A stretch of 64,000 bases of DNA from an uncultured Gemmatimonadota bacterium (GCA_951812955.1 OX638340.1:1120001-1184000), one strand, 5' to 3'; positions 1 to 58,091 are shown, counted from the first letter of the stretch. Notes: a model not told the origin generated them from the sequence alone. Numbers and translations are program-made.

Positions 1-1015
1 CGTCCGTCGCTAGCACGTCTTTCCATGTAGGATCGTCGAAACGGTGGTATTCCAGTGCCAGGAAGTTCGGGACACTCGCGCAGACGTGGGCGTCCCCGAC
101 CGTGCTCAACGCGCTGGAGTTGTTGTGCGGAGCGAATGGCACGTAATACATCTCGGCCATGTTGGCGATCTTTCGGCATTCCGACAGGCCGCCGCATTTC
201 GAGATGTCCGGCATGATGATATCGGCGGCCTGCTGCTGCAGCAGGTCGCGGAAGCCATGGCGAAGATAGAGGTTTTCGCCGACGCAGATGGGCGTCCCCG
301 TGGCCTGCGTGATCTTGGCCAGGGCGTCGATGTTCTCGGGGGGAACCGGCTCTTCAAGCCACAGGAGATTCAGCGGTTCGAGTTCCTGGGCCATTTTCAT
401 CCCCGCGCTGGCGTCATACCTGCCATGCAAGTCGATGGCAAGATCAAGAGACGGTCCGATGCCCTCGCGGATCGCATACGCTTCATCCACCAGGGACTTG
501 AGTTCATCGGGCGTCACCGACCAGTTCCACGGATCCAGCTTGTGTGGGTTATCCGCGTCGTCCAGATCGAACTTGATCGCCGTGAAACCCTGTTCCCGCA
601 CCTCCGCGGCACGTTCGTTGTAGTCGGCGTGGGCACTGTCCACGTATAGACGAACCCGGTCACGGAACTTGCCGCCCAGAAGCCGGTAGACGGGGACGCC
701 CTGGGCCTTCCCCGCCAGGTCCCACAGGGCAACCTCGATGCCTGTGAGCGCGGAGATCGAAGCGCCGCCCGCACCGCCCATGAAGATGTACCTTCGACGG
801 ATGTACTCGAAACAGGCATCCACGTCCCTCGGGTCCATGCCGATAATCATCTTCGCCATGTGCCGGGTCGACTCCCGCCAGCCGCCGTCGACGTGACTGG
901 CTTCCCCCGTGCCGTATACCCCCTCGTCCGTGTATACGCGAACGTAATGGTACCGGTAGGTGGTATTCCCTGATTTAACCGGGACGTCAGCAGTTTTTAT
1001 TTCGGTGATCTTCAT
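1..1015 (-). CDS. Enolase-superfamily enzyme (mandelate racemase/muconate lactonizing enzyme family; acid-sugar dehydratase-like). C-terminus runs off the window start.
   Basis: Reverse-strand translation from ATG (complement of 1013-1015) gives MKITEIKTADVPVKSGNTTYRYHYVRVYTDEGVYGTGEA...AIKFDLDD...LWLEEP...ICVGENLY. The capping-domain N-terminus plus KxK/D/E/D barrel metal-ligand pattern is typical of MR/MLE enzymes. An AGGAG RBS lies 6 nt upstream. Not in the ORF track because it runs off the edge. Confidence 0.75.
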   Translation of the reverse strand, partial: MKITEIKTADVPVKSGNTTYRYHYVRVYTDEGVYGTGEASHVDGGWRESTRHMAKMIIGMDPRDVDACFEYIRRRYIFMGGAGGASISALTGIEVALWDLAGKAQGVPVYRLLGGKFRDRVRLYVDSAHADYNERAAEVREQGFTAIKFDLDDADNPHKLDPWNWSVTPDELKSLVDEAYAIREGIGPSLDLAIDLHGRYDASAGMKMAQELEPLNLLWLEEPVPPENIDALAKITQATGTPICVGENLYLRHGFRDLLQQQAADIIMPDISKCGGLSECRKIANMAEMYYVPFAPHNNSSALSTVGDAHVCASVPNFLALEYHRFDDPTWKDVLATD

Positions 1016-1158: not shown

Positions 1159-3279
1159 TCAGTCTCCGATCCGGACCGCCTTCAACCGGTTGTTGTAGTG
1201 GTCGCTGACGAGCAGCACGTCTTCGCCGAAGAAACACAGGCCATGGGGCTCGTTCAACGGCGCATCCAGTGCTGGCACCGACCGGTCGGTGTCGCCATAA
1301 TCCCCGCTGCCGGCGACGGTCTCAATCAGGCCGTTTCCGGGAAAGCGCCGCACGCGGTTGTTGCCCGAGTCGGAAAAGTATACACGTCCTTGTTTGTCCA
1401 AGGCCAGGCCTCGGGGAACAGATATCGCAGCGCTGGTAGCCTTTGTACCGTCCGGAGAAAATCCGGCTTCTCCGGTTCCGGCCAAAGTAGAAATAACCCC
1501 CGTATCTGCGTCCACCCGCCTGATGACATGATATCGGTCGTCCGCGAAGTAGAGGTGGCCGGAACCATCTACTCTAATGGCCGTAGGTGAGCCGACCCGC
1601 GCACGGGTCGCCGGACCGCCGTCGCCTGAATACCCCTGCAACCCGATGCCCGCGACCGTGGTGATGATACCCGTTCGTGCGTCTACTCGCCTGATGCGCC
1701 CGCAACCGGCATCGCCGATGTATATGTCGTCATCGGGACCGTGGGTCACGGCGAGGACGTGCATCAGGCACGCGCTCAGGGCCGGACCGCCGTCTCCCTT
1801 GTCCCACTGAAAGGCCGCGCCGGCGACGTTGCGGATAACGCCGTCTCGATCGATCCTACGCACGTGGCCGTGCCGCGTATCGGCGATGATCACGCGGCCG
1901 GCGCGATCCACCGACACGTCGTGGGGATTGCCAAGGTGGGCGTCGACGGCCGCACCGCCGTCGCCGCCGTAGGCCCGCGCACCGGTACCGGCAATGGTTC
2001 GAAAGATCCCGGTGTCCGGGTCGATGGACCGGATTCGCTGATTCCACACGTCGGCGATATGGATCGTGCCACCGGGGCCGACCGACAGGCCGCCCGGGCC
2101 GTTGAGAAACCCGGCCCTGGCGTTCTCGCCGTCGTGTACGCTGGTGCCGCCAAGGACGGTTGTAACGATCCCGGTACCGCCGTCGCACCTTCTGAGCCGG
2201 CCGGAGCAGTCGCCCCAGAAAACCGTGCCGTCCGGATCGGCGCAGATCCCCGCTTCCACGGAGTTGCACCGGGTGATGACGCCAGGCAGCCCTTCTTCGC
2301 CGAAACCCGGCTCGCCGGTCCCGACGAGTGTGCGGACGAGTCCGGTCTCCCGCTCCACCTTGCGGACCCGGAAGCCGTACTTCTCGCCGACGTAGAGGTT
2401 GTCGTGGACATCCAGGCAGATCGCGTCCGGCATGAGCGTGCTCGCCTCCGCGGCCGGACCGCCGTCCCCGTTGGAGGCGCGCTGTCCATTGCCCAGGACC
2501 GTGTCGATGATCCCGGACCGCATGTCGATCCTGCGTACCCGGTCGTTGGAATTGTCGCACACATATAGATCGCCCACTGAGTCGAAGGCAAGATGTTCCG
2601 GGTGGTTGAATCCGGCGTCCTTCGCCGGACCACCGTCGCCGTGGTATCCTCCCAGGCTCAGCCCCCTGCCCGAGTATGGCCGGCTGTCACCCCGTTCGGA
2701 TGGATAGTGCCGGGCATGATGGCCGAATACCGTATCGACGATCCCGGTCTGCGCGTCTATGCGACGGATGTTGTTGGTCCACTCGCTTGACAGGTACACG
2801 GTTCCATCGGGGTCCACGGCCACGCCGCAGGTACAGTCCAATTCGGCTTCCAGGGCCGGACCGCCGTCGCCGCCCCGGCCTATCCGCCCGTTACCGGCAA
2901 CGCGTGTGATGATGCCGGTCTCGTAATCGATTCGCCGGATGGTGAAGTTGCCCAGATCCGACAGATAGAGGTTGCCATGGCGGTCCTGGCATAGATCATG
3001 GGGGTGGCGGAACCGCGCTTCGGCGGCCGGACCGCCGTCGCCCGAATCGCCCGCGATGCCGTCCCCGGCAAAGGCGTGCAGCGTGCCATCGAGATCAATC
3101 CGCCAGATGCGATGCCACTGGTAGTCGATCACGATCAGGTCGCCGTCGGGCCGACGCACCACACCCATGGGCCACCCGGCGTCAGCTTCCCGCGCAGGGA
3201 TTCCCGCCCGCTGGCCCACACCCGCAATGATGGTAATCTCACCGGGAGGCAGGCTTTGTAGTTTTGTGATCATGCTCAT
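1159..3279 (-). CDS. NHL repeat-containing beta-propeller protein (706 aa)
   Basis: Track ORF. More than 10 repeats of the pattern (L/I)Y(V/L)xDxxNxR(V/I)RR(I/V)D...GxIxTVAG.G.....GDGGPA, diagnostic of NHL repeats. Confidence 0.75.
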   Translation of the reverse strand: MSMITKLQSLPPGEITIIAGVGQRAGIPAREADAGWPMGVVRRPDGDLIVIDYQWHRIWRIDLDGTLHAFAGDGIAGDSGDGGPAAEARFRHPHDLCQDRHGNLYLSDLGNFTIRRIDYETGIITRVAGNGRIGRGGDGGPALEAELDCTCGVAVDPDGTVYLSSEWTNNIRRIDAQTGIVDTVFGHHARHYPSERGDSRPYSGRGLSLGGYHGDGGPAKDAGFNHPEHLAFDSVGDLYVCDNSNDRVRRIDMRSGIIDTVLGNGQRASNGDGGPAAEASTLMPDAICLDVHDNLYVGEKYGFRVRKVERETGLVRTLVGTGEPGFGEEGLPGVITRCNSVEAGICADPDGTVFWGDCSGRLRRCDGGTGIVTTVLGGTSVHDGENARAGFLNGPGGLSVGPGGTIHIADVWNQRIRSIDPDTGIFRTIAGTGARAYGGDGGAAVDAHLGNPHDVSVDRAGRVIIADTRHGHVRRIDRDGVIRNVAGAAFQWDKGDGGPALSACLMHVLAVTHGPDDDIYIGDAGCGRIRRVDARTGIITTVAGIGLQGYSGDGGPATRARVGSPTAIRVDGSGHLYFADDRYHVIRRVDADTGVISTLAGTGEAGFSPDGTKATSAAISVPRGLALDKQGRVYFSDSGNNRVRRFPGNGLIETVAGSGDYGDTDRSVPALDAPLNEPHGLCFFGEDVLLVSDHYNNRLKAVRIGD

Positions 3280-6744: not shown

Positions 6745-7593
6745 CTACACGCGAACGTACTTGTGCACGAGGTTCTCCACGCCCACTTCGCCCACGTAGA
6801 TATCGCCGTAGCGGTCGACCCAGACGCTGTGGGCGCCATGGGCGCGATCGACGGGTCCGCCCCGGACGACCCACTGGGCGATGAGCCTTCCGTCCATGTT
6901 CATGATGGTGACCCCGCCGCCCTCGCCCAGGAAGACCGTATCCTCGTCATCCACGAACAGGCCGCAGGGCGCGGGACGCCCGGGCCATTCCGCGAGAAAG
7001 CTGCCCTCGGAGTCGAAGACCTGAATCCGGTTGTTGGTCTCCCGGTCGGCCACGAGAAGGCGTCCGTCGGACGCGGGAAAAATGTTATGGGGTAAGGTGA
7101 ACCGGCCGGGCGCGCTGCCTTGACCGCCCCAGGTGTGGACCAGGTCTCCCGAGGGCGTCATCCGGTGCACGTAGCACTGCCCGTATCCATCGGCGACGTA
7201 CAGGTCGCCGGACGGTCCTTTCACCACGCGCGTCGGCATATTGAACGGTTTGCCCGGTTCTCCGGTCTGGTTTGGCACGCCCAGTGTCTGCAGCAAGGTG
7301 CCGTCGGTTGAAAATACCCGGACGGTATGGTCTCTGCAGTCCGGAATGAAAATCCTGTCCTCCCCGTCGATCCAGATCTCGTGGGGCAGGGACAAAATGT
7401 CGTGACCCCATTCGTCCAACAGGCGGCCGTCCCGGTCGTAGACCACCACGGCGGGATTCGGCTCCCGGTCGACAACATAGACCCGGTCCCGTGAATCAAC
7501 GGCCACGGCCGTGGCGATACCCAGCGTCCGTTCGGAACCCCATCCGGGCACTTTCTCGTAACAGTAATCACCCGATCCCCAGATCATTGGCAT
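6745..7593 (-). CDS. NHL-repeat / 6-bladed beta-propeller protein (PAL-like, peptidyl-alpha-hydroxyglycine lyase-type fold)
   Basis: Repeated motifs DRVYVVDREPN, DRIFIPDCRDHTVRVF, LYVADGYGQCYVHRM, LLVADRETNNRIQVFD, IYVGEVG. Confidence 0.6.
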   Translation of the reverse strand: MPMIWGSGDYCYEKVPGWGSERTLGIATAVAVDSRDRVYVVDREPNPAVVVYDRDGRLLDEWGHDILSLPHEIWIDGEDRIFIPDCRDHTVRVFSTDGTLLQTLGVPNQTGEPGKPFNMPTRVVKGPSGDLYVADGYGQCYVHRMTPSGDLVHTWGGQGSAPGRFTLPHNIFPASDGRLLVADRETNNRIQVFDSEGSFLAEWPGRPAPCGLFVDDEDTVFLGEGGGVTIMNMDGRLIAQWVVRGGPVDRAHGAHSVWVDRYGDIYVGEVGVENLVHKYVRV

Positions 7594-7853: not shown

Positions 7854-8636
7854 ATGGGTGTACTCGACAGCTTTGGTTTAAAAGGCCGCATCGCCGTGGT
7901 AACGGGCGGCGCGGGACCGCAGTTTGGCAGCAGCATCTCCGAGGCCCTGGCCGAAGCGGGCGCGACCGTGGTCGTCGCCTCCAGGAACATGGAGAACAAC
8001 CACCGGTTCGTTGCCGGATTGAACGAACGGGGATACGATGCGCATCCCGAAGAGCTCGACATCACGAACACCGAATCGATCGGCAGTCTGAAACAACGGG
8101 TAATGGACCGATTCGACCGCGTGGATATACTCGTCAACAGCGCGGTGGTCGGACGCGGCGGCGGGTTCGACGAACAGACCCCCGACTACTGGGCGGCAAG
8201 CGCTCAGGGAAACATGGTAGGCCTTTTCGCGCTGTGCAAGGCCTTCGTTCCGGTCATGGCCAAGCGGGGCGGCGGCAGTGTAATCAACGTTTCCAGTATC
8301 TACGGTGTCGTGGCCAACGACCCGGGCCTCTATGAAGAAACCGGGATGAAGCAGCCTCCCGACTACACCTTCGTCAAGGGCGGCATGATCAATTTCACCC
8401 GGTACATCGCAACCTACTTCGGGAAACAGGGCGTTCGGGCCAACTGCATCTGTCCGGGCGGTTACTTCAACGAACAGCCCGGTCCCTTTGTGCGCCGGTA
8501 CGAGCGCCGCGTTCCCCTCGGACGCATGCTGAACAACGAGGATCTCAAAGGTGCCGTAGTCTTCCTGGCCTCCGACGCATCCAGGTACGTCACCGGCGTC
8601 TCGTTGATGGTCGACGGCGGCTGGACGGCCCTCTAG
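7854..8636 (+). CDS. SDR-family short-chain dehydrogenase/reductase
   Basis: Internal ATG at 7854 with an AGGAG RBS. GRIAVVTGGAGPQFG Rossmann motif, NSAV, and a YxxxK catalytic dyad region (YTFVKGG). Confidence 0.85.
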   Translation: MGVLDSFGLKGRIAVVTGGAGPQFGSSISEALAEAGATVVVASRNMENNHRFVAGLNERGYDAHPEELDITNTESIGSLKQRVMDRFDRVDILVNSAVVGRGGGFDEQTPDYWAASAQGNMVGLFALCKAFVPVMAKRGGGSVINVSSIYGVVANDPGLYEETGMKQPPDYTFVKGGMINFTRYIATYFGKQGVRANCICPGGYFNEQPGPFVRRYERRVPLGRMLNNEDLKGAVVFLASDASRYVTGVSLMVDGGWTAL

Positions 8637-8786: not shown

Positions 8787-9491
8787 TCACGACTCCGGAT
8801 CGACGATCGATTTGTCCTGGGGATGATAGTCGATCGCTCGTCGGCCGTGGTCCAGGTCGTACATCCGCCCGGTACTGTCGGACACGCCGAATACGACCTC
8901 GAATCGAATGCCGGGGTGGATGACCGCCCGTTCGAACACCCGGACCGCGTCGCCGTGACTCAGGTGATGGGGATGTCCCGGCAGGTCCCGCTGTTTCTGG
9001 AAATTGCCTATGCGCACGCACACGACCTCCATGTCGGACCGCACCGCGTACATGTAACCCAGGCTTTCCCCGAAAACCTTGCTGATGGAATAGTAGCTTT
9101 CCGGCCTCGGAGTCATGTCGATCGTGCGGAAGACGTCCTGCGGATACGGCGCCAGGAGGCCCGCGCGGCTCGCGAAAGCAACCCGGCGCACACCGTTGCG
9201 GCTCGCCGCTTCGAAAAGCGTGTAGGTACCGATGAAGTTGGCATGCAGGATTTCGTCCCACGACGCGCCGCCCGATGGGTTGCCGGCCAGGTGGATCACT
9301 GCGTCCATGCCTTCCGTGGCCTGCATGACCGCGTCCATGTCGGTGATGTCGCCCACGACTTCGTCTTCCAGTCCCGTGGTCGGCACCCGGTCGAAACCGC
9401 GGAGGGGATATCTATCCTTAAGTCCGTTAACGATGATCGAGCCGATGACGCCGGCCGATCCGGTGACGAGTATACGAGGTGTTTCGTTCAT
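8787..9491 (-). CDS. NAD-dependent epimerase/dehydratase family protein (short, 234 aa)
   Basis: N-terminal ILVTGSAGVIGS Rossmann motif and a YxxSK-like region (YYSISK). Start overlaps the stop of the upstream enolase gene (9488-9491). Confidence 0.75.
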   Translation of the reverse strand: MNETPRILVTGSAGVIGSIIVNGLKDRYPLRGFDRVPTTGLEDEVVGDITDMDAVMQATEGMDAVIHLAGNPSGGASWDEILHANFIGTYTLFEAASRNGVRRVAFASRAGLLAPYPQDVFRTIDMTPRPESYYSISKVFGESLGYMYAVRSDMEVVCVRIGNFQKQRDLPGHPHHLSHGDAVRVFERAVIHPGIRFEVVFGVSDSTGRMYDLDHGRRAIDYHPQDKSIVDPES

Positions 9492-10714
9492 TCCGACTCC
9501 TTGCGCATGAATGGTCCGTGCCGTTCAATCCAGTCGTAGGTCTCCTGCCACGGCGCGCTGCCGTCCTCTTCCCAGATCTCCAGCCTTACGCCGCGAATAT
9601 TGCCCTCGGGAAACCCGGTCAGGCGGCTGACCGAAGGATAGCCAATGGTATGGTATACGTTGCCGCTCGGTAGCATCAACTTTCCGATATGACGTGGAAT
9701 CTCGGTCTTCGGGTTCCCCGCGATACGCACCAGTTCCGCCTCGTCCACTTCCACACCCAGTCCGGGTCCTTCCGGCACCGGTGAGCTTCCGTCAGCCACC
9801 TCGATCCGGCCGCCGGTGACGTCCTCGCCGTACTGGTCGTCCAGGTTGACCGTGTGCATCACATTGGGGATCACCGCGCCGAGGTGGAGCGCCATGGCTT
9901 TGCTAAGCGTCCCCCCGGTCAGCTGGATCACGGTGGACACATTCGCCTCGGCACAGGCGAAGCCCCGTTTCAGACTCATGCCGATACCGTGCTCGCCGAC
10001 CATGTAGGCGTCGGCGCATCCGAGCGTGATCTCCGGTCCGCCGCCGAGTTGCGGTACGTGCATGAGCAGGGGGATCGTCGTCTTTTCCCGCAGGCGGCGC
10101 CATCCGTCCACGTCGCGCCAGACCAGGGGATCTTCGATCACGCCGACGACAGGAGACTTCTCCAGGTGTTCGACTATTCTCGCCACGTCGGCGCCCGACC
10201 GGTTGTGGTTGAAATCGTAGTGCATCTTGAATCCGGGAGGCGCGACCTCCTCCACCGCGCGGTTGTGCTCGTAGACATCGAAGAACGCGCATGTGTGCAT
10301 CTTGAACGCCATGTACCCCTCGTCCGCCGCGCGCACGACCTCGGCGGCCAGGTCTTCGGGAGATGTCGAGCGTGTCCACGCCGCGACCGGCACCCGGTCG
10401 CGAACCTTCTGACCCATGAGCTTGTAGGCCGGTATTTCGAGGTGTTTCCCCATGAGATCGTACAGGGCGCCCATGAGCGCTACCGGTAGTTTGGCGTTTA
10501 TGTGGTCGAAGGGATGGCTGCCGGTCAACCGGTCCACTTCCCTGATGTCCATCGTCACATGTCCCCGGCTTTCGCCGTAACCCACCACGCCGTTGTCCGC
10601 GGTCACCTTGAATACCGTCTGCGTATCGATTCCATTGAACAGGACCTTACGGCCCTCGTTGCGGTCGGCCAACCTGGGATTGATGTGTGTAATCGCGATA
10701 TCGGTGATTTTCAT
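9488..10714 (-). CDS. Enolase-superfamily enzyme (MR/MLE family), paralog 2
   Basis: Internal ATG at 10714 (MKITDIAITHIN...). The 172-aa N-terminal extension in track ORF 9488..11230 overlaps the PhyH gene in another frame and is rejected. KMHYDFNH, VIEDPL, LMHV motifs of the MR/MLE barrel. Confidence 0.8.
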   Translation of the reverse strand: MKITDIAITHINPRLADRNEGRKVLFNGIDTQTVFKVTADNGVVGYGESRGHVTMDIREVDRLTGSHPFDHINAKLPVALMGALYDLMGKHLEIPAYKLMGQKVRDRVPVAAWTRSTSPEDLAAEVVRAADEGYMAFKMHTCAFFDVYEHNRAVEEVAPPGFKMHYDFNHNRSGADVARIVEHLEKSPVVGVIEDPLVWRDVDGWRRLREKTTIPLLMHVPQLGGGPEITLGCADAYMVGEHGIGMSLKRGFACAEANVSTVIQLTGGTLSKAMALHLGAVIPNVMHTVNLDDQYGEDVTGGRIEVADGSSPVPEGPGLGVEVDEAELVRIAGNPKTEIPRHIGKLMLPSGNVYHTIGYPSVSRLTGFPEGNIRGVRLEIWEEDGSAPWQETYDWIERHGPFMRKESE

Positions 10715-10752
10715 GGCCTGTCTCGTTTCCTTCCTGTTCTGCCGGGCATTTC

Positions 10753-11625
10753 CTATGAGTTCGCCAGCGACTTCGGCGTCCCCGCCTGATTCACCCCGTC
10801 CCGCACGGTGAGGGCGATCGGCCAGTTCTGCCCGCCCCGCTTTACGTACTCGTCCTCCGCACCGCATAGCCAGGTGAACATCTGTGCGGCGGCGAGCGCG
10901 CCCTGGAACTGTTCGAATACGCCGGCCGGGGGATTGAAGTCGATCGTATTGAAATCGATATCGTCCTGTTTTACCCAGTCCCGCACGGGCGGCGTGGTCC
11001 GCCAGTAGTTGTATTTGAGCAGGTTGCGATAGGCGCTCCTGCCCCGGGGGCCCGAGGTGGCTCGCGACCGGCGGTGCCAGATGCCGTAGACCGTAAGGAA
11101 GATCGTCCCCGCCGGGGCGGCCGTAGAAACCGTGCCGCGGATGGAACCCAGGTGGGCCATCATGGGCGCCTTGTTGCGCATGAAGTGCGAACCGGGCAGC
11201 ACGACGGTCGGCCCCATGTCCCCGGTGCATTCCTCCGGATAATAGAATACCTGAAGATACTCCAGCGCCGGGGTATAGATCGTACCGCCATCCCGGTGCC
11301 AGTTCTGCGGCTTGTCATATGGCAGCGGCCCCCGGTGATTGCTGATGATGAGCGGCAGCGTGAAATCGCGCCCCAGGAGCGACCGGACGGCGCCAGCCGC
11401 CTCCGGGTTCATGAGCACGCCGTCTACGAAGAACGACTCGCCCACGATTGGCGTGGGTTCGTAAGTGCTGTCACTGCGTTCCAGATAATCGACGACCTGT
11501 TCGTTGATCTCTTTAGGAACGACTTCCGGCAGCATCAGGAAGCCGTTGCGGCAGAAATCGACCACTTCGCGGTCCGTCATGGTCGCAGCGCAATCCATTT
11601 TCTTGCCGTAGGGCACCTTTGCCAT
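10753..11625 (-). CDS. Phytanoyl-CoA dioxygenase (PhyH) family Fe(II)/2-oxoglutarate-dependent oxygenase
   Basis: Internal ATG at 11625 with a GGTGGAG RBS. HRDGG and HxD...H-type cupin motifs (NWHRDGG, VVLPGSHF). Family assignment from overall similarity pattern. Confidence 0.7.
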   Translation of the reverse strand: MAKVPYGKKMDCAATMTDREVVDFCRNGFLMLPEVVPKEINEQVVDYLERSDSTYEPTPIVGESFFVDGVLMNPEAAGAVRSLLGRDFTLPLIISNHRGPLPYDKPQNWHRDGGTIYTPALEYLQVFYYPEECTGDMGPTVVLPGSHFMRNKAPMMAHLGSIRGTVSTAAPAGTIFLTVYGIWHRRSRATSGPRGRSAYRNLLKYNYWRTTPPVRDWVKQDDIDFNTIDFNPPAGVFEQFQGALAAAQMFTWLCGAEDEYVKRGGQNWPIALTVRDGVNQAGTPKSLANS

Positions 11626-11627
11626 GC

Positions 11628-12095
11628 CTATCTCCACCTTTCCAGGACGAACTCGTATCCCAGGCCGTAGTTGTCCTGTTCGTTCATGGCCAGGGATGCC
11701 TCCGGAAACTTGATGATGCGCCATCCGTCGTCCAGCGCTTCCTTGATCGACCGGTACCTGAAATCGCCGTTTTCGTCGAGGCCGTCGGAGTCCGCTCCAT
11801 CTTCGTAGATGCTGATACCGACCACGGCCGAGTGGGGGTTGGTCGAGGGTGCGTGCAAGTAGAGCAGACTCTGTTTAGACCCGGTCGAAGACTCCTGCGG
11901 CTGCAGCTGCGGTTGCGTCTGCTTCTGTGCCTGCGGTTGCTTCTGCGCCTGCGCCTGCTTCTGTGCCTGCGGTTGCTCCCGCACCTTTAACTGCCCCTGT
12001 GCCTGAGCCAGGGCCCGGTCAATGTCCTTGATATCAAGTTTTCCGTTTTTGAAACGCTTCCTGATTCGTTTCAATATCGCGGTCATTTTATCCAT
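11628..12095 (-). CDS. Hypothetical protein with (QAQKQ)n low-complexity linker; first gene of the PhyH-enolase-epimerase operon
   Basis: Track ORF 11628..12125 (start ambiguous: 12095, 12086 or 12125). Basic amphipathic N-terminus (MTAILKRIRKRFKNGKL), then QAQKQAQAQKQPQAQKQTQPQLQPQ encoded by a (CTGNNN)n DNA repeat, then an acidic C-terminal domain. Its stop at 11628 abuts the PhyH start at 11625. Confidence 0.45.
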   Translation of the reverse strand: MDKMTAILKRIRKRFKNGKLDIKDIDRALAQAQGQLKVREQPQAQKQAQAQKQPQAQKQTQPQLQPQESSTGSKQSLLYLHAPSTNPHSAVVGISIYEDGADSDGLDENGDFRYRSIKEALDDGWRIIKFPEASLAMNEQDNYGLGYEFVLERWR

Positions 12096-22027: not shown

Positions 22028-22295
22028 GGATCGGTCTCCTGGTTTTCTTTAGTAGTGGTCAGCGGTCAATGCTGTACGATTCGAATTTTGGAATATATGA
22101 CGCGGGCGGCCCCGTGTAAAGGATCATACGAGGCGACGTGTGTTGCGTGCAGGGCGGCACAAGGCCAACACGGGTGGGCGGTGCCGTTCCAACACGGGCG
22201 GGCGGCGAAAATTCTAAGTGCTGGTGAGCGACGCAGTCCCCATGGATTTCAAGGAAAGCGCCAGGTTTGCGGTGGCCTGCTGAACTAAAAGCTAC

Positions 22296-22832
22296 TTACC
22301 TCGAAAAATACATGATCATGACCTCTATGTCCTTCAGCATGATCCTCAACAGTTCCGCTTCCTCTTCGTCCTCCGCATCAAGACCCACGGTTGCCAGTAG
22401 CGAGGCTACTGCAAATTGCAGGGAAAGCGTAGTATCCGTAACGGTGTATCCCACGGAAAAAGTCTCACCATCTGAAGTCGTGACGGTTATTCGATTCCCA
22501 GACACCTGGTATCGGTCAGGCTGTTCGCCGTCGACAATCACCGTTCCGTCAGACCTGAAATCAAGGGTAAGGGCGAACGTCACGTTGGATTCTCCAAGCA
22601 TGTCAGATACCACCATGTCGGCCTGGCTCGCAGTCAGGCCCTCCCCGATCAGGTACTCCCGCAGGTTGGCGGCCAGTTTGGTATCGAAATCGTTTCCCGT
22701 ATATTTCCACGTGCCGATCAGCTTCTCTGCAGGGTCCGGGTCCGGTTCCGGTGTGGGAGTCGGGGCCATCGGATTATCGTCATCTCCGCAGGCTAGCGCC
22801 ACCAGGACGGTCATCATAAGTAGAATCCGCAT
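22296..22832 (-). CDS. Lipoprotein with lipocalin-like domain (paralog of the C-terminal domain of the 18335-19042 protein)
   Basis: Signal peptide plus lipobox LAC, a Pro/Thr/Asp-rich linker, then LIGTWKYTGNDF...LREYLIGEGL...TLSLQF, alignable to [12 protein letters not shown]...[11 protein letters not shown]...LTLTLS. Confidence 0.6.
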   Translation of the reverse strand: MRILLMMTVLVALACGDDDNPMAPTPTPEPDPDPAEKLIGTWKYTGNDFDTKLAANLREYLIGEGLTASQADMVVSDMLGESNVTFALTLDFRSDGTVIVDGEQPDRYQVSGNRITVTTSDGETFSVGYTVTDTTLSLQFAVASLLATVGLDAEDEEEAELLRIMLKDIEVMIMYFSR

Positions 22833-22937
22833 ATCATGCCTCCTGCCGAGTAGGCTCGGCTATACGTGTCTTCAAGAATGGATCGGAGATGTTAACGGTG
22901 AGCTCTCCGTTTCGTCTATCAATACTTCGCTTGTGGT

Positions 22938-23246
22938 TCAAATAGATACCCTGATCGTGATGGTCTCCCTTATTGTCTCGTCGTACAGCAGGCTTTTTAT
23001 TCTGCCCTTCACCACATATCGCCCCAAATCGTTGAAACCGTGATTGAGTGACAACAGGGCCAACTTGTTGTGCTGGGCCGTTGCGACTACTCTTTGGGTT
23101 GGTTCACCAGTTGTCTGAACGATGGGGTTACTTTCCGAACAGGACGCAATCGCGAACAACATTGTAATCAGTAGGATAGACTGGAATGCACGCAAGTACA
23201 ATATACACACCCTTTCTGAAGAAGTTAGGGGCACCATTTGACCCAA
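22938..23246 (-). CDS. Hypothetical small lipoprotein (in a low-GC patch)
   Basis: Track ORF. Hydrophobic stretch plus lipobox-like IASC. Sits in an AT-richer segment, so the coding status is uncertain. Confidence 0.3.
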   Translation of the reverse strand: MGQMVPLTSSERVCILYLRAFQSILLITMLFAIASCSESNPIVQTTGEPTQRVVATAQHNKLALLSLNHGFNDLGRYVVKGRIKSLLYDETIRETITIRVSI

Positions 23247-49330: not shown

Positions 49331-49355
49331 CTTGCGTCCCTCTGATCTCAAAGGA

Positions 49356-51253: not shown

Positions 51254-51277
51254 GTGCCGCTCCGGCAATCCGGTGTA

Positions 51278-52468
51278 TTAGTCGAAGAATCCCTGGTCGT
51301 CCTCCTTCAGGTAGGGCAGCGTCTTGTCCGGTACCAGGTCGACCCCCAGGCCGGGTCTGTCCCACACATCGATGTAACCGTCCTTCACGATCGGGTCCGG
51401 CAGGCCCTCCACGATGTCGTACCACCAGGCGGGGTTGCCGACGGGATATTCGAAGGCGATGTAGTTGGGCGGCATGGCGGCCGATGCGTGCACCAGCGCC
51501 GCCAGGCCGATCAGGCCGTCGATGACGCCGTGGGGCGCCATTAGCACGCCGTGGAGATCAGCGTATTCGGCGATCCACTTGAGCTCGGCGATCCCGCCCA
51601 CGTCGGCGGGATCGGGACCCACCACGTCCACGGCGCGTTTCTCGATGAGGTCGACGAAGTTTTCCCTGAGATAGATCTGTTCCCCCGTGTGGATGGGCGT
51701 GGACGTCTTCGAATTCACCTCCCGGTACAGGTCGGCCAGGACATAGGGCGTATAGTCTCCGGTGATCATGTCTTCCAGCCACATTATATGCAGATGTTCC
51801 ACGGCTTTTGCGAGGCGCATGGCGTCTGGAACAAGCATGCCCGGCCCGCAATCGAGCGCCAGTCCCACTTCGTCGCCGAGGACCGCTTTCATAGCCTCGA
51901 TGCAGGCCACCAGGTGCTTCAGGCCCTTTTCGGTGAGCGGGCCGCGATTGCCGTGAAATCCGTGACGCTGCAGGTCGCCGTAGAAGAAGTCGGGGACCTG
52001 GGACGGCATCTGGCTATGGAAACTGATGCCCTGTTTGATGATGGTGAATCCTTCAGGCGCCGCCTTCATCCTGGCCATGTCCTCGGCGTAGTCATCCACG
52101 GTTGATCCCTTCATGGGAAACCGTACGGCCCCGTTGTAGACCCGGACCCGGTCCCGCATCTTGCCGCCGAGCAACTTGTACACCGGCAGGCCCGCCGCCT
52201 TGCCGGCGATGTCCCACAGGGCCATCTCGATTGCGCTTACCGAGCTGCCCCACGGCTTGAAACTGCCCAGCCGTCGTATACTCGCGATGACTCTGTTTAC
52301 GTCCGTGGGATCCTGGCCGATGATGAAATCCCGATAGAAGAGGACATGGGGTTTCAGGTAGTGCTTGGAGTTCTCTATCTGTCCAAGCCCGTGGATCCCC
52401 TCGTCCGTGGTGATCCGTACCACGGGGTTCTGGCCGATCACGGCGCATTTCAGGTCGGTGATTCTCAT
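51278..52468 (-). CDS. Enolase-superfamily enzyme (MR/MLE family; D-galactonate dehydratase-like), paralog 3
   Basis: Internal ATG at 52468 overlapping the PhyH stop (ATGA). MRITDLK, EMALWDIAGKAAGLPVYKLLGG, MWLEDM, TGEQIY motifs. Confidence 0.8.
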   Translation of the reverse strand: MRITDLKCAVIGQNPVVRITTDEGIHGLGQIENSKHYLKPHVLFYRDFIIGQDPTDVNRVIASIRRLGSFKPWGSSVSAIEMALWDIAGKAAGLPVYKLLGGKMRDRVRVYNGAVRFPMKGSTVDDYAEDMARMKAAPEGFTIIKQGISFHSQMPSQVPDFFYGDLQRHGFHGNRGPLTEKGLKHLVACIEAMKAVLGDEVGLALDCGPGMLVPDAMRLAKAVEHLHIMWLEDMITGDYTPYVLADLYREVNSKTSTPIHTGEQIYLRENFVDLIEKRAVDVVGPDPADVGGIAELKWIAEYADLHGVLMAPHGVIDGLIGLAALVHASAAMPPNYIAFEYPVGNPAWWYDIVEGLPDPIVKDGYIDVWDRPGLGVDLVPDKTLPYLKEDDQGFFD

Positions 52469-53343
52469 GCTGGATTCCCTTTCGACTGCAACCGTTTCTC
52501 CCATCCTGCCGGTTTGCCCGCTTCATCCCATGCCTTCATTTCGTCCAACAGGCGTTCAACGACTTTCTTTGGCCCCTGGAATCCTCCCTGGCGTTTCATT
52601 TCGCAGACCCCTTCCGACAACTGATCCTCGTATTCCGCTATGGGACCGGCACCGGGTGTCCAGGACGCGTAGGACGTGCAGTACCGCTGGAACATCGTGC
52701 GACGCGGCGGATCGTGCAGGGGCCAGGGGAGCGCGCCGTGACAAAGCGCTTCGGTGAAAATGACGGCGTCCCCGGCGTTGACGGGAACATTGACCACTGC
52801 AGGCGGACCGGAGCGGATGTTAATGTGCTCCGGCCGTTCGAAATAGGTCTTGTGGCTACCCGGTATGCAGACGAATCCGGCCCCGTCGGGAACGTCCACG
52901 AGGGAAATGGCCGCGTTGATGAAGGTGGCGAACACTTCGCCATCCGCCGCCTGGTAATCGTTGGCCGGGTTTCTCCACGCCCCGGAGACACCGTTGTGCA
53001 GCGTGATCTCGTCGCTGTCCGGCAGATTCACGGTGAGTGCGGACAGGAGGTGCTGGGGTCGCTGCCGGGTCAGTGCGAGCACGACGCGCATGATCGGCAG
53101 GTTAAGGACCAACCGGTCGAAAACCGGGTCGGCGTACTCGGCGTGGAGAATGGCCCGCGCGGCCGTCGATTTTTTCCTGGGATCCTCATAGGAACAGAGC
53201 GGCGGCGGCAGTTCGTCTTCGTCCATGCCGTGCCACGCGTCGCACCGGGCGATCATGTGTTCCAGATCCTCCTGGGGAACAACCCGGCGGAGAACCAGGT
53301 AACCATGCAAGTCGAACAGCCACTTTTCTTTGTCTGTGAGCAT
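52465..53343 (-). CDS. Phytanoyl-CoA dioxygenase (PhyH) family Fe(II)/2OG oxygenase, paralog 2
   Basis: PhyH-like length and HxD...H pattern (PGSHKTY ... HGALPW). Gene-order twin of 10753-11625. Confidence 0.65.
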   Translation of the reverse strand: MLTDKEKWLFDLHGYLVLRRVVPQEDLEHMIARCDAWHGMDEDELPPPLCSYEDPRKKSTAARAILHAEYADPVFDRLVLNLPIMRVVLALTRQRPQHLLSALTVNLPDSDEITLHNGVSGAWRNPANDYQAADGEVFATFINAAISLVDVPDGAGFVCIPGSHKTYFERPEHINIRSGPPAVVNVPVNAGDAVIFTEALCHGALPWPLHDPPRRTMFQRYCTSYASWTPGAGPIAEYEDQLSEGVCEMKRQGGFQGPKKVVERLLDEMKAWDEAGKPAGWEKRLQSKGNPA

Positions 53344-53439
53344 CGGGTGAAATTCGTTTGATGTGAACCGGGTGCCGGAATCCGTCGCGGGCGAGGCTCC
53401 ACGCTGGTCTACGCTAATTTACCAGTTTGCGGGCGCTCG

Positions 53440-54888
53440 TCAATTCACATACGCGTTGTGGAACTCGATCCACTTCGGAAGGACTTCCTCGATTACTTCC
53501 CTGGGCGGCAGGAACGCGATCCTCAGGTGACTGGTGCCCGGTTGCTGTCCGAATCCTGCCCCGTTGACCGTGACCAGCCCGGTCCGATCCAGAAGTCCCA
53601 TACAATAATCGAAATCGTCCGTTCCGTCCGGCAGTCCGTCCAGCCGGGGGAACAGGTACATCGCCCCGGTCCGCCCGAAACAGGAAACGCCGTCCATATG
53701 ATCGAATCCCGCCCTTATCATGACCGCCTTGTCGTGGAGGTCTTCGAGGATCTTCCGCCGCTCATGCGTGAAACGGCGGTAGGGCGCCGTGTTCTCCGGC
53801 GGGGGATTGACCAGCAGGTACATCATCAACTGCCCGACCGTGTTCGAGCAGATATTCACCGAAGCCTGTTTAAGCACGAGGTCCGTGAATGACAGATCGG
53901 TGTTCCGAATGCGCGGAGCGTTTCTGATCTCGAGGTATCCGCCCCGGTGGCCGCACTCGCCGTAGAATCCCTTCGAGGTGCTGTGGACGCTGAAGAGCGG
54001 TACGTCGCCCCGGCCCAGCACCCGGGCGAAGGATACGAATCCCGCGTCCGCGTCGTAGACGTTTTCCTGGTAGACCTCGTCGGCGATGATGGCCAGGTCG
54101 TTGTCCCCTGCGAAAGCGATGACCTCCCTGACGGTCTCTTCGTCCAGTACGGCGCCCGTCGGGTTTCCCGGATTGATGACCACCATGGCCTTGACGGTCA
54201 CGCCGCGCTTCCGCGCGCCTTCCAAAGACGAATCCAGCAGATTCCGGTCCATGGCCCAGCCCGATTCCTCGTCGAGGAAATAGTCGACCTGCGTGCCGCC
54301 GCAACGCTTGATGGCGGCGGAATACAGCGGATACTGAGGTATGGGAATCATGACGCCGTCGGATTCGTCGTCAATCAACAGGTCGATGACGTAACGCACC
54401 GCTTCGCTGGCGCCGTTGGTGATGAATATCTGTTCCGGATCGGAACGGGGAACAGAGCCACTGACCGCTCCGTCTCTCCGGTCGATAAATCCCGCCACGG
54501 CTTCCCGGATGAACCGCGGTCCGCTGCTGTCCGAGTAGGCGCCCATGCCGGTTTCCAACTGCGACAGGTAGTTTTCGCTGAGTTCGAGCACGTAATCGGA
54601 GTGGAAGTCGTCCCTTTCCAGTCCGTGCAGGTCAGCACCGTTGAACAGTGTTTTAAGTCGCCGTTCACGCTCGATTCGAATGGGGTGTTCGACCAGGCTC
54701 AGCACCTCCCGGTAGAAGGAGACGGGCTGCTGCCCAAGCGCCTGGGGATTGCCGAGGTTGCACGGAATGATGCGTCTGCCTTGTTGCTTCAGTTCGGCTG
54801 CCCGACTGGGAATCGGTCCCCGCACGGCGTACTCCATTTCGAGTATCCTTCGGTTGACCGTCATGTCCCGGGGCTTTATCGAACCCAT
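53440..54888 (-). CDS. Alanine aminotransferase-type PLP-dependent aminotransferase (class I/II, AlaT/ALT subfamily)
   Basis: ALT-like length (482 aa), NPGNPTG, SKGFYGECGHRGGY (PLP-Lys region characteristic of ALT). GGAG RBS before the ATG at 54888. Confidence 0.75.
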   Translation of the reverse strand: MGSIKPRDMTVNRRILEMEYAVRGPIPSRAAELKQQGRRIIPCNLGNPQALGQQPVSFYREVLSLVEHPIRIERERRLKTLFNGADLHGLERDDFHSDYVLELSENYLSQLETGMGAYSDSSGPRFIREAVAGFIDRRDGAVSGSVPRSDPEQIFITNGASEAVRYVIDLLIDDESDGVMIPIPQYPLYSAAIKRCGGTQVDYFLDEESGWAMDRNLLDSSLEGARKRGVTVKAMVVINPGNPTGAVLDEETVREVIAFAGDNDLAIIADEVYQENVYDADAGFVSFARVLGRGDVPLFSVHSTSKGFYGECGHRGGYLEIRNAPRIRNTDLSFTDLVLKQASVNICSNTVGQLMMYLLVNPPPENTAPYRRFTHERRKILEDLHDKAVMIRAGFDHMDGVSCFGRTGAMYLFPRLDGLPDGTDDFDYCMGLLDRTGLVTVNGAGFGQQPGTSHLRIAFLPPREVIEEVLPKWIEFHNAYVN

Positions 54889-57994: not shown

Positions 57995-58091
57995 GAACCC
58001 TGGTCAAGTGCTCTCACATTCACATGCGAGTTTTTGCCAGTACACGAATACGTTGCTGAAGCAGCAGTCAAACTTTCGCTAAGGTGAGAAC

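What the first reader, a model, noticed from the sequence alone, without database searches (positions are those of the whole stretch)
9488..11625. Two independent PhyH-dioxygenase to enolase-superfamily gene pairs (second pair 51278-53343), plus a third enolase paralog at 1-1015
The same gene order (PhyH-family Fe/2OG oxygenase immediately upstream of an MR/MLE enolase-superfamily enzyme, minus strand) occurs twice, with divergent sequences. Pair 2 has an ATGA overlap.

Pair 1 is embedded in a four-gene operon: Q-rich hypothetical - PhyH - enolase - NAD epimerase, with abutting stops and starts. A recurring oxygenase-plus-dehydratase/racemase couple suggests a conserved two-step chemistry (hydroxylation followed by dehydration or epimerisation of an acid-sugar or amino-acid-like substrate) that has been duplicated and diversified. 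Such paralog expansions are reported for marine lineages that degrade recalcitrant dissolved organic matter.
Basis: partly seen in the sequence, partly recalled or inferred. Interest (0 to 1): 0.5.

Follow-up and report, generated by a model that had tools for sequence, protein, structure and literature searches.

The report
Oxygenase–dehydratase gene pairs, independently assembled
A sponge-associated bacterium has two unrelated iron/2-oxoglutarate oxygenase genes, each directly upstream of an enolase-family sugar-acid dehydratase; the pairs are real but assembled separately, and the most conserved partner of one oxygenase is an uncharacterised small protein.

Summary
P1 (10753-11625) lies upstream of E1 (9488-10714), P2 (52465-53343) lies upstream of E2 (51278-52468), and a truncated third enolase E3 sits at 1-1015, all on the minus strand. 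The two pairs are not copies of one ancestral pair. P1 and P2 are barely alignable. P1 has the canonical HxD...H iron site. P2 has the HygX-type variant H-x-G...E-x3-H. E1 and E2 share 38% identity over 69 residues.

Pair 1 joins two modules:
- A small protein plus P1. The small gene is upstream of P1-type genes in 76 of 78 loci from about ten phyla. It has no Pfam, sequence or fold match.
- E1 overlapping a uronate-dehydrogenase-like SDR, not an epimerase.

E1 directly follows P1 only in close relatives. One Zixibacteria MAG has E1 in the same cluster behind an aldolase.

Pair 2 is conserved in close relatives. A downstream enolase occurs in 10 of 37 P2-family loci, from three enolase lineages, against about one enolase gene per 70 kb of flank.

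Best reading: sugar-acid catabolic clusters with accessory oxidative steps. The coupling is real but facultative. The substrates are unknown.

The parts
11628..12095 (-). Small protein 'QR' (155 aa). It has an N-terminal helical hairpin, a Q-rich disordered linker and a conserved C-terminal alpha/beta domain of about 80 aa. It is the near-obligate upstream partner of P1-type oxygenases.
11894..11977 (.). Imperfect tandem repeat (period 18/36 nt) that encodes the Q-rich linker of QR. Its length varies between strains.
   Evidence: Tandem Repeats Finder. Homologues lack the 34-residue insert. Nucleotide alignments to the closest relatives L016 and L017 break at 11905-11948. The model has pLDDT about 51 there.
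10753..11625 (-). P1: PhyH-class Fe(II)/2-oxoglutarate oxygenase (290 aa) with the canonical triad H110-x-D112...H184 and R200.
   Evidence: Pfam PhyH 25.4 bits. The triad residues are invariant in 37 homologues. The AF2 model has pLDDT 88 and pTM 0.89. Its best Foldseek matches are KanJ, HygX, proline hydroxylase H11, TlxIJ and FtmOx1, at E about 1e-9 and probability 1.0.
9488..10714 (-). E1: divergent enolase-superfamily enzyme (408 aa), probably an acid-sugar (aldarate-type) dehydratase, with a conserved C-terminal extension of about 75 aa.
   Evidence: MR_MLE_C 78 bits. It is below every NCBIfam equivalog cutoff. The best solved relative is the O. iheyensis galactarate dehydratase 2oqy/3hpf, 63 bits. 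Family invariants are K138-x-H140, D167, E194, H219, D235 and Q264. Homologues at 61-65% identity sit beside DHDPS-family genes, heparinase II/III, sulfatase, SDR and Amidohydro_2. The 70% orthologue in L038 follows an HpcH/HpaI aldolase.
8787..9491 (-). Uronate-dehydrogenase-like short extended SDR (234 aa). It overlaps the E1 stop by 4 nt.
   Evidence: Pfam Epimerase 82 bits. The best PDB hits are uronate dehydrogenases: 6mfh (E 2.9e-34), 3ay3 and 3rft, aligned over residues 6-229. The Y134-x3-K138 motif is present. The gene is kept downstream of QR-P1 even where E1 is absent (L035, L039).
7854..8636 (+). Classical SDR convergent with the cluster (3' ends facing). It is gluconate-5-dehydrogenase/KduD-like. 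The start is uncertain; the ORF opens at 7737.
   Evidence: NCBIfam best hits are gluconate 5-dehydrogenase (186 bits) and KduD (129 bits), all below cutoff. It is syntenic in relatives.
52465..53343 (-). P2: PhyH-class oxygenase (292 aa) with the HygX-type variant iron site H116-x-G118...E198-x3-H202 and R214.
   Evidence: Pfam PhyH 45.7 bits. H116, G118, E198, H202 and R214 are invariant in 37 homologues. The profile's best PDB hit is HygX (4xc9/4xca/4zpi/4xcb), E 3e-13, with LHGG and NEALMHG aligned. The HygX motif is described in PMC13374393.
51278..52468 (-). E2: MR-subgroup enolase-superfamily enzyme (396 aa), dehydratase-like, overlapping the P2 stop by 4 nt.
   Evidence: MR_MLE_N plus MR_MLE_C. 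The best NCBIfam hit is galactonate dehydratase, 172 bits against a cutoff of 311. The best PDB hit is 2qq6, of unknown function, at 177 bits. Metal ligands D206, E232 and E263 and the D286/H313 dyad are present.
1..1015 (-). E3: third enolase-superfamily gene, galactonate-dehydratase-like. Only the N-terminal 338 aa are present; the 3' end runs off the window.
   Evidence: Translation. Pfam 61 and 194 bits. NCBIfam galactonate dehydratase 240.7 bits against a cutoff of 311. D195-x-H197, E221, E247, D270 and H297 are present. There is no PhyH gene on its upstream side; the neighbour is an NHL-repeat gene at 1159-3279.
53416..53443 (-). Sigma-70-like promoter match just upstream of P2. This is weak evidence only.
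   Evidence: TTGACG-16-TAAATT with a TG extension, 9 of 12 matches. One such match was found against 0.6 expected in shuffles.

Best explanation
The two loci are separately assembled catabolic gene clusters for carbohydrate-derived carboxylic acids (sugar acids). The host is a sponge-associated bacterium of a MAG lineage labelled Latescibacterota or Gemmatimonadota.

In each cluster the enolase-superfamily enzyme most likely abstracts the proton alpha to a carboxylate and eliminates water, giving a 2-keto-3-deoxy acid. The PhyH-class Fe(II)/2-oxoglutarate oxygenase encoded just upstream most likely carries out an accessory oxidative step on the same substrate family. That step could be hydroxylation, or oxidative removal of a blocking substituent, on a sugar or sugar acid.

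Cluster 1 joins two modules. The first is a conserved two-gene unit: a small protein with no recognisable fold plus the canonical-triad oxygenase P1. The second is a uronate-dehydrogenase-like SDR translationally coupled to the dehydratase E1. This is the dehydration-plus-NAD-oxidation pairing typical of non-phosphorylative sugar-acid pathways, possibly an oxidative uronate/aldarate route.

Cluster 2 is a translationally coupled pair: a HygX-type oxygenase (relocated acidic iron ligand, H-x-G...E-x3-H) and an MR-subgroup dehydratase.

Shown: gene order, family membership, active-site motifs, conservation patterns and enrichment of the juxtaposition.

Inferred: the substrate class, the order of the reactions, and that oxygenase and dehydratase act in one pathway.
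For: Family and active-site evidence.

Coupling:
- 4-nt overlaps at P2/E2 and at E1/SDR, and no terminators in the junctions.
- Pair 2 is kept in five relatives. Enolases lie directly downstream in 10 of 37 P2-family loci of at least 45% identity. These enolases come from three lineages (E2-, E3- and E1-type). Flanks hold 3 enolase genes in 212 kb.
- Pair 1 is kept in 19-21 of 22 close loci.
- In L038 the order is PhyH, QR, P1, HpcH aldolase, E1, PhyH.
- Enolases lie within 2 kb of QR-P1 in 7 of 56 distant loci, against 0 in 632 kb of flank.
- L107 holds two PhyH and two enolase genes in 6 kb.

Sugar-acid context:
- E1 homologues sit beside DHDPS-family genes, heparinase II/III, sulfatase, Zn-ADH, SDR, Amidohydro_2 and GH172.
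- L099 has MFS, DHDPS and a sulfatase beside its P2-E2 pair.
- QR-P1 neighbours include Gfo/Idh/MocA, SDR, GH78, GH127-like, a TIM-barrel gene and a tartronate-semialdehyde-reductase-like gene.
- L187 has an FGGY kinase and ThuA.
- The closest structural relatives of P1 and P2 (KanJ, HygX) act on sugar rings.
- Enolase plus NAD-dehydrogenase pairing in non-phosphorylative sugar oxidation is described for SAR202 (PMC10444878).
Against: - No substrate is identified. Every equivalog model scores far below its cutoff.
- Most P2-family loci (27 of 37) and all 56 more distant P1-family loci lack a directly downstream enolase. One close relative lost E1. The oxygenases therefore do not need an enolase.
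- E1-family genes at 61-65% identity have no PhyH neighbour.
- E1 lacks the usual KxK and His/Lys acid-base residues, and its third metal-ligand position is His. Even 'dehydratase' is an inference for E1.
- The juxtaposition events are few, about five or six independent ones. These genomes are rich in both families (PMC3909097), which raises chance adjacency above what the sampled flanks suggest.
- The transporter and some neighbours of cluster 1 (PutP/PanF-like SSF, PatB C-S lyase, arginase-family gene) would also fit an amino-acid-like substrate.
Confidence: 0.55

Rival explanations
1. The adjacency has no functional meaning. Both families are expanded in sponge-symbiont genomes and are scattered through catabolic islands, so PhyH and enolase genes sometimes land next to each other. 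The QR-P1 unit and the E1-Udh unit in cluster 1 would be two unrelated operons that happen to abut.
For: - PhyH genes make up more than 1.9% of poribacterial genes (PMC3909097).
- The coupling is absent in most family members.
- E1 homologues occur without PhyH.
- L035 lost E1 only.
- P1 and E1 are separated by 38 nt rather than overlapping.
Against: - P2/E2 have a 4-nt overlap here. The same 4-nt overlap occurs between P2-like genes and E1-type enolases in L107, L111 and L112.
- Three enolase lineages are recruited to the same position.
- Flank density is only 3 enolase genes in 212 kb and 0 in 632 kb.
- L038 has P1 and E1 in one same-strand cluster with an aldolase between them.
Confidence: 0.25
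2. The substrates are amino-acid-like or osmolyte-like carboxylates (hydroxyproline, ectoine, betaine or N-acyl amino acid types). The oxygenase would hydroxylate, and the enolase-family enzyme would then epimerise or dehydrate, as in hydroxyproline or proline-betaine catabolism.
For: - The PhyH family includes ectoine hydroxylase.
- The P1 model matches proline hydroxylase H11 about as well as KanJ.
- E1 and E2 give weak hits to cis-3-hydroxy-L-proline dehydratase, 45 and 72 bits against a cutoff of 500.
- Neighbours include a PutP/PanF-like SSF symporter, a PatB C-S lyase, aminotransferases and an arginase-family gene.
- L101 has DAP epimerase and creatininase next to its pair.
Against: - The gene overlapping E1 is a uronate-dehydrogenase-like SDR.
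- The contexts of E1, P1 and P2 relatives are dominated by glycan and sugar-acid enzymes.
- Acid-sugar dehydratase models score higher than amino-acid models for all three enolases.
Confidence: 0.12
3. The clusters are biosynthetic. HygX-like and KanJ-like oxygenases tailor a glycoside natural product, for example by oxidative cyclisation as in orthosomycins, and the enolase-family and SDR enzymes modify its sugar units.
For: - P2 has the HygX metal motif and HygX is its best solved relative.
- P1's best structural relatives are antibiotic-tailoring enzymes.
- L039 carries a WelO5-like oxygenase in the same cluster.
Against: - There are no glycosyltransferases, NDP-sugar enzymes, PKS/NRPS or resistance genes near either pair in the window.
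- The neighbours are transporters, aldolases, sulfatases, lyases and glycoside hydrolases in relatives.
- The families are spread over about ten phyla in catabolic settings.
Confidence: 0.05

Closest known systems
HygX, the Fe(II)/2-oxoglutarate orthoester synthase of hygromycin B biosynthesis (PDB 4XC9/4XCA/4XCB/4ZPI)
   Same: It is the best solved relative of the P2 family (E 3e-13). It has the same PhyH-like fold class and the same unusual iron site, H-x-G...E-x3-H. HygX H102/G104/E202/H206 correspond to P2 H116/G118/E198/H202, which are invariant in 37 homologues.
   Different: The match is only 53 bits, and covers P2 profile positions 67-227. HygX Lys137, proposed to fill the gap left by the glycine, aligns with an invariant Asn (N143) in P2. 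The context is not an antibiotic gene cluster. Here the gene is translationally coupled to an enolase-family dehydratase, and the family is widespread in marine and sponge-associated bacteria.
KanJ, kanamycin B dioxygenase (PhyH-family enzyme acting on an aminoglycoside sugar ring)
   Same: It is the best structural match of the P1 model (Foldseek E 1.3e-9, probability 1.0). Both have the canonical HxD...H triad.
   Different: Identity is 18-20% and TM-score about 0.46-0.5. P1 is almost always encoded behind a small partner protein that KanJ lacks. The context is catabolic.
Non-phosphorylative sugar and sugar-acid oxidation pathways with paired enolase-superfamily dehydratases and NAD(P) dehydrogenases (SAR202 group I, PMC10444878; enolase expansions, PMC6946804)
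   Same: E1 overlaps an NAD-dependent SDR, and a second SDR lies beside it. Relatives add aldolases (DHDPS or HpcH types), lactonase-like Amidohydro_2, transporters, sulfatases and glycan lyases.
   Different: In the passages read (term searches of these papers), no Fe/2-oxoglutarate oxygenase is linked to the enolases, and PMC6946804 and PMC10444878 do not contain the term 'phytanoyl-CoA dioxygenase'. The organism here is not SAR202. No paper in the searchable library mentions PhyH together with the enolase superfamily or galactonate dehydratase.
Oxidative uronate/aldarate pathway: uronate dehydrogenase Udh, then glucarate/galactarate dehydratase, then KdgD or GarL aldolase. The pathway outline is from my own knowledge.
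   Same: The SDR is Udh-like over its full length (E 2.9e-34 to 6mfh). E1's best solved relative is the O. iheyensis galactarate dehydratase. An HpcH/HpaI aldolase scoring like GarL precedes the E1 orthologue in L038. DHDPS-family genes precede E1 homologues.
   Different: All scores are far below equivalog cutoffs. E1's catalytic residues (K138-x-H140, H219, Q264) match neither classical glucarate dehydratases nor, exactly, the O. iheyensis enzyme. This pathway is not known to include an oxygenase.
PhyH-domain expansion in sponge symbionts (Poribacteria, PMC3909097)
   Same: The ecological setting is the same. Homologues of P1 and P2 occur in Poribacteria, Chloroflexota, Latescibacterota and Gemmatimonadota MAGs from sponges. 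Most such genes have no assigned function.
   Different: In the section read, that paper gave a function and a partner only for the PhnY/PhnZ-like pair. It did not describe an enolase pairing or the small-protein partner.

Membership tests
PhyH (PF05721) Fe(II)/2-oxoglutarate oxygenases | Sequence match to the family model above the curated cutoff | tested here: met
   P1 scores 25.4 bits and P2 45.7 bits against a cutoff of 22. P1 is marginal and matches only residues 99-184.
PhyH (PF05721) Fe(II)/2-oxoglutarate oxygenases | Double-stranded beta-helix fold of the PhyH type | tested here: met
   The P1 AF2 model (pLDDT 88) matches KanJ, HygX, FtmOx1 and TlxIJ at probability 1.0. P2 was not modelled, but its profile aligns to HygX, SnoK, AviO1, EctD, SyrB2 and PhyH.
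PhyH (PF05721) Fe(II)/2-oxoglutarate oxygenases | 2-His-1-carboxylate facial triad HxD/E...H plus a 2-oxoglutarate-binding Arg | tested here: met
   In P1, H110, D112, H184 and R200 are invariant. In P2 the acidic position is Gly (H116-x-G118), and an invariant E198 lies four residues before H202. This is the HygX variant rather than the canonical triad.
PhyH (PF05721) Fe(II)/2-oxoglutarate oxygenases | 2-oxoglutarate-dependent oxidation of a defined substrate | not testable with these tools
   This needs enzyme assays.
HygX-type oxidative cyclases (orthosomycin oxygenases) | H-x-G...E-x3-H iron site | tested here: met
   Invariant in the P2 family and aligned to the HygX motif residues.
HygX-type oxidative cyclases (orthosomycin oxygenases) | Lys137 occupying the space left by the glycine | tested here: not met
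   HygX K137 aligns with the invariant N143 of the P2 family (alignment; invariants).
HygX-type oxidative cyclases (orthosomycin oxygenases) | Location in an orthosomycin or aminoglycoside biosynthetic gene cluster and orthoester-forming activity | tested here: not met
   No biosynthetic genes lie around P2. The activity itself is not testable here.
Fe/2-oxoglutarate halogenases (SyrB2, WelO5 type) | HxA/G with no replacement carboxylate, leaving a halide site | tested here: not met
   P2 has HxG but also the invariant relocated Glu (E198-x3-H202), as in the non-halogenating HygX. SyrB2 is only a marginal hit at E 0.005.
Enolase superfamily, MR/MLE type (PF13378/PF02746) | C-terminal barrel domain match above cutoff | tested here: met
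   E1 78, E2 143 and E3 194 bits against a cutoff of 29.4.
Enolase superfamily, MR/MLE type (PF13378/PF02746) | N-terminal capping domain | tested here: inconclusive
   E2 and E3 match MR_MLE_N (50 and 61 bits). E1 does not. Its alignments to 4dye and 2oqh do start at residue 1-2. E1 was not modelled.
Enolase superfamily, MR/MLE type (PF13378/PF02746) | Three metal-binding carboxylates at the ends of barrel strands 3, 4 and 5 | tested here: inconclusive
   E2 has D206, E232 and E263. E3 has D195, E221 and E247. E1 has D167 and E194, but the third position reads Met-His (H219 invariant).
Enolase superfamily, mandelate racemase subgroup | His-Asp dyad on strands 7 and 6, and a Lys-x-Lys-type base on strand 2 | tested here: inconclusive
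   E2 has D286/H313 and E3 has D270/H297. E1 has D235 but Q264 in place of His, and K138-x-H140 on strand 2.
Named acid-sugar dehydratase equivalogs (galactonate, mannonate, gluconate, rhamnonate, glucarate, talarate/galactarate) | Score above the NCBIfam equivalog cutoff | tested here: not met
   The best hits are galactonate dehydratase: E1 74, E2 172 and E3 241 bits against a cutoff of 311.
Uronate dehydrogenase (Udh) type SDR | Full-length similarity to solved Udh enzymes, with a Rossmann GxxGxxG and a catalytic YxxxK | tested here: met
   E 2.9e-34 to 6mfh, 5.8e-31 to 3ay3 and 7.4e-25 to 3rft over residues 6-229. TGSAGVIG lies at 10-17 and Y134-x3-K138 is present. Substrate specificity is not testable here.

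The most novel reading that the evidence does not exclude
The small QR protein and P1 form a previously unrecognised two-component oxygenase system, conserved across about ten bacterial phyla. In it a small protein with no detectable relative of known structure would be either an obligate activating or substrate-presenting subunit, or itself the protein substrate of a PhyH-class enzyme. In parallel, the P2 family would be a large catabolic branch of HygX-type oxygenases with a relocated carboxylate. These would perform a non-hydroxylating oxidation on sugar acids that feeds enolase-family dehydratases.
Probability: 0.25. Interest if true: 0.7.

Novelty: new variant of a known kind. Interest (0 to 1): 0.45.

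Why it matters
PhyH-domain genes and enolase-superfamily genes are among the most expanded and least understood enzyme families in sponge symbionts and in marine bacteria that use complex organic matter.

The results offer three testable entry points:
- An oxygenase with a HygX-type iron site, translationally coupled to a dehydratase. The product of one enzyme can be tested as the substrate of the other.
- A Udh-like/E1 pair that points to uronate or aldarate chemistry.
- A small partner protein that accompanies one oxygenase subfamily almost without exception. It has no Pfam, sequence or fold match.

If the oxygenases remove or transform substituents on sugar acids, that would add an oxygen-dependent step to the non-phosphorylative sugar pathways proposed for these bacteria.

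Tried and rejected
- Exact look-ups of E1 and P2 in the assembly index found nothing.
- The 'duplicated and diversified pair' reading was rejected. P1/P2 and E1/E2 are too divergent, have different active-site motifs, and swap partners between lineages.
- A halogenase reading of P2's HxG was considered. It was rejected because the relocated Glu is invariant, as in HygX.
- QR as a RiPP-type precursor was considered unlikely. Its conserved part is a confidently folded C-terminal domain, and the variable part is an internal linker.
- Literature searches for PhyH together with the enolase superfamily or galactonate dehydratase returned nothing.
- Aldolase and DHDPS neighbours could not be assigned to the aldarate pathway specifically. 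GarL, HpaI and YfaU models score alike, and KdgD scores low.
- Greedy ORF picking in GC-rich loci chose some opposite-strand ORFs. Key loci were therefore re-read by hand.

Full report
**What is there**

On the minus strand the window carries a four-gene string:
- a small protein, 'QR' (11628-12095);
- a PhyH-class oxygenase, P1 (10753-11625);
- an enolase-superfamily gene, E1 (9488-10714);
- a short SDR (8787-9491).

It also carries a second string: PhyH-class P2 (52465-53343) followed by the enolase-superfamily gene E2 (51278-52468). A third enolase gene, E3, is cut by the window start (1-1015).

Junctions are a 2-nt gap (QR/P1), a 38-nt gap with a Shine-Dalgarno-like AGGAAGGA (P1/E1), and ATGA overlaps at E1/SDR and P2/E2. 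No terminator-like hairpin falls in these junctions. One sigma-70-like site lies just upstream of P2.

Pfam supports all the family calls, marginally for P1 (25.4 bits against a cutoff of 22). For E1 only the C-terminal barrel domain is hit.

**The pairs are not copies of each other**

P1 and P2 align only over 30 residues (E=0.006). E1 and E2 share 38% identity over 69 residues. E2 and E3 are 33% identical over their full length.

Alignments of 37 homologues each show that P1 has the canonical iron site W-H110-x-D112...H184 with R200. The P2 family has invariant H116-x-G118 and E198-x3-H202 with R214.

The P2 profile's best solved relative is HygX (E 3e-13), with LHGG and NEALMHG in register. 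A 2026 review describes the HygX site as H-X-G...E-X3-H, an acidic ligand relocated and replaced by glycine (PMC13374393). P2 thus has the HygX-type variant site and is not a halogenase-type site. One difference is that HygX Lys137 aligns with an invariant Asn143 in P2.

The P1 model (pLDDT 88, pTM 0.89) matches KanJ, HygX, proline hydroxylase H11, TlxIJ and FtmOx1 at probability 1.0.

**Source organism**

The window is about 93% identical in DNA to a 3.9-Mb MAG chromosome (OY762445.1). It is 96% identical to a contig of a sponge MAG labelled Gemmatimonadetes. Other close relatives are labelled Latescibacterota. This is a sponge-associated lineage, not SAR202.

**Pair 1 is a junction of two modules**

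In 80 genome loci holding P1-type genes, a QR homologue lies directly upstream on the same strand in 76 of 78 informative cases. That covers 16 of 17 P1 subgroups at 75% identity. The loci carry these labels:
- Latescibacterota, Gemmatimonadota and Zixibacteria;
- Armatimonadota-type Chthonomonadaceae;
- Planctomycetota, Lentisphaerae and Spirochaetaceae;
- Chloroflexota, Poribacteria and Handelsmanbacteria;
- Verrucomicrobiota-type Opitutales.

Some loci have tandem QR-P1-QR-P1 arrays. Several have a longer PhyH-domain gene (about 430 aa) just upstream of QR.

By contrast, E1 plus the SDR follow P1 only in relatives of at least 81% P1 identity (19-21 of 22 loci). None of the 56 more distant loci has an enolase directly downstream. 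One close relative, L035, has QR-P1-SDR with E1 missing.

**The small protein**

QR homologues are about 120 aa. The 34-residue Q-rich stretch in this window is an insertion in a variable linker. It is encoded by an imperfect 18/36-nt tandem repeat, differs in length from the closest strains and is predicted to be disordered.

The family is small: 131 representative clusters among 1.84 billion proteins, nearly all standalone. It has no Pfam or NCBIfam match and no solved relative by sequence.

I infer that QR works physically with the oxygenase, as a subunit or as a substrate. Nothing here distinguishes between the two.

**E1 and the SDR**

The SDR's best solved relatives are uronate dehydrogenases. 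Matches are E 2.9e-34, 5.8e-31 and 7.4e-25 over the full length, with YxxxK present. 'Epimerase' is only the Pfam family name.

E1 belongs to a large, well conserved family of about 404 residues. Its best solved relative is the Oceanobacillus iheyensis galactarate dehydratase, at only 63 bits.

E1's family invariants are unusual: K138-x-H140 on strand 2, D167, E194, H219 where the third metal ligand is expected, D235, and Q264 where MR-type enzymes have His. There is also a conserved C-terminal extension.

E1 homologues at 61-65% identity sit behind DHDPS-family genes. Their other neighbours are heparinase II/III, sulfatase, Zn-ADH, SDR, Amidohydro_2 and GH172 genes, with no PhyH.

A dehydratase overlapping an NAD-dependent dehydrogenase is the pairing described for non-phosphorylative sugar oxidation in cultured SAR202 (PMC10444878). 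A second SDR, gluconate-5-dehydrogenase/KduD-like, and an SSF symporter lie next to the cluster.

**Is P1 linked to E1 at all?**

Some evidence says yes. In a Zixibacteria MAG (L038; P1 72% and E1 70% identical) the same-strand order is PhyH(long), QR, P1, HpcH/HpaI aldolase, E1, PhyH. In L039 the order is QR, P1, HpcH aldolase, PhyH, WelO5-like oxygenase, Udh-like SDR.

Among the 56 distant loci, an enolase gene lies within 2 kb in 7. No enolase gene was found in 632 kb of flank more than 3 kb away.

Other recurrent neighbours of QR-P1 have a carbohydrate-catabolism flavour:
- Gfo/Idh/MocA and SDR oxidoreductases;
- GH78 rhamnosidase and a GH127-like gene;
- xylose-isomerase-like TIM barrels;
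- a tartronate-semialdehyde-reductase-like gene.

**Pair 2**

The P2-E2 pair with its 4-nt overlap is kept in relatives of 75-96% P2 identity: L008, L096, L097, and L099 and L100, where the enolase appears frameshifted. It is absent from L098.

Across 37 informative P2-family loci of at least 45% identity, 10 have an enolase gene directly downstream on the same strand:
- E2-type in five;
- E3-type in L101;
- E1-clade (36-39% identical to E1, again with a 4-nt overlap) in L105, L107, L111 and L112.

Flanks hold 3 enolase genes in 212 kb, so well under one such adjacency is expected by chance. The events are not independent. I count about five or six separate juxtapositions.

Other P2-family members sit next to quite different genes: DUF1501; a nucleoside hydrolase and a multicopper oxidase; an FGGY kinase and a methyltransferase.

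Contexts that do include enolases also hold an MFS transporter, a DHDPS-family gene, a sulfatase and further PhyH genes.

E2 has the MR-subgroup residues D206, E232, E263, D286 and H313. It falls below every equivalog cutoff, and its best solved relative (2qq6) has no assigned function.

**Interpretation**

The best-supported reading is that these are sugar-acid catabolic clusters. Enolase-family enzymes dehydrate the acid. NAD-dependent dehydrogenases or aldolases take the 2-keto-3-deoxy product onward. PhyH-class oxygenases add an oxidative step on the same substrate family.

Cluster 1 may belong to a uronate/aldarate route: a Udh-like SDR, galactarate dehydratase as E1's nearest solved relative, and a GarL-like aldolase in L038. 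The aldolase and DHDPS models are not specific, however.

What the oxygenases do is inference only. It could be hydroxylation, oxidative removal of a methyl, sulfate or amino substituent, or a HygX-like non-hydroxylating oxidation.

The rivals are chance adjacency in paralog-rich genomes, amino-acid-like substrates, and natural-product tailoring. None is excluded, but each fits the contexts less well.

**Novelty**

PhyH expansion in sponge symbionts (PMC3909097) and enolase expansion in marine bacteria (PMC6946804 and PMC10444878) are both known. No paper in the searchable library links the two families.

Three points are new within known kinds:
- the recurrent but facultative oxygenase-dehydratase coupling;
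- a large non-biosynthetic family with the HygX-type iron site;
- the near-obligate QR-P1 module.

I rate the finding as moderately interesting. Most of its value lies in the testable small-protein partner and in the HygX-type site appearing in a catabolic context.

Noticed in passing
window 11894-11977 (within the small-protein gene 11628-12095): The Q-rich stretch is an imperfect 18/36-nt tandem repeat. Its length differs from the closest relatives, and DNA alignments to L016 and L017 break at 11905-11948. It looks like repeat slippage in a disordered linker.
   Followed up: yes
P0380 (353 aa, from the representative-protein search): A single natural fusion of a PhyH-like oxygenase domain (a third subtype) with a C-terminal QR domain. 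It hints that QR and PhyH enzymes act as one unit. It could also be a gene-calling artefact in a tandem array.
   Followed up: partly
L038 6336-7616; also L003, L039, L041, L043, L044, L052, L053, L072, L080: A PhyH-domain protein of about 430-440 aa is often encoded directly upstream of the QR gene. This gives the order PhyH(long)-QR-P1, with two oxygenases flanking the small protein.
   Followed up: partly
L039 5081-8207: A Gemmatimonadota MAG has QR-P1 followed by an HpcH/HpaI aldolase, another PhyH gene, a WelO5-like 2-oxoglutarate oxygenase and the Udh-like SDR. That makes three different Fe/2-oxoglutarate oxygenases in one same-strand cluster.
   Followed up: partly
L107 4032-10093: A marine metagenome contig has two enolase-superfamily genes and two PhyH genes within 6 kb. 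One pair has a 4-nt overlap.
   Followed up: partly
window 50099-51268 and 49356-50102: Directly downstream of E2 lie an AAA ATPase with a weak match to the antiphage MADS3 ATPase (70 bits against a cutoff of 420) and a weakly IMP-cyclohydrolase (PurO)-like gene. Both are syntenic in the relative L008.
   Followed up: no
window 45764-49351: A 1195-aa TPR plus FG-GAP/ASPIC-type repeat protein lies near pair 2. It is kept next to the P2-E2 pair in relatives L008 and L099.
   Followed up: no
window 1159-3279 and 6745-7593: Two NHL-repeat beta-propeller proteins (706 and 282 aa) give weak ScyF-like matches. The smaller one lies between the SSF symporter and the SDR beside cluster 1 and could be a lactonase-type enzyme. 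This was not tested.
   Followed up: no
window 22001-24000 and 56001-64000: G+C content drops from about 0.61 to 0.50-0.58 in these stretches, which may mark foreign or differently constrained DNA.
   Followed up: no
L110 and L114: P2-type and P1-type oxygenase genes lie within 2.5 kb of each other on opposite strands; the QR gene is present in L110 only. The two PhyH subfamilies therefore co-locate in some genomes.
   Followed up: no
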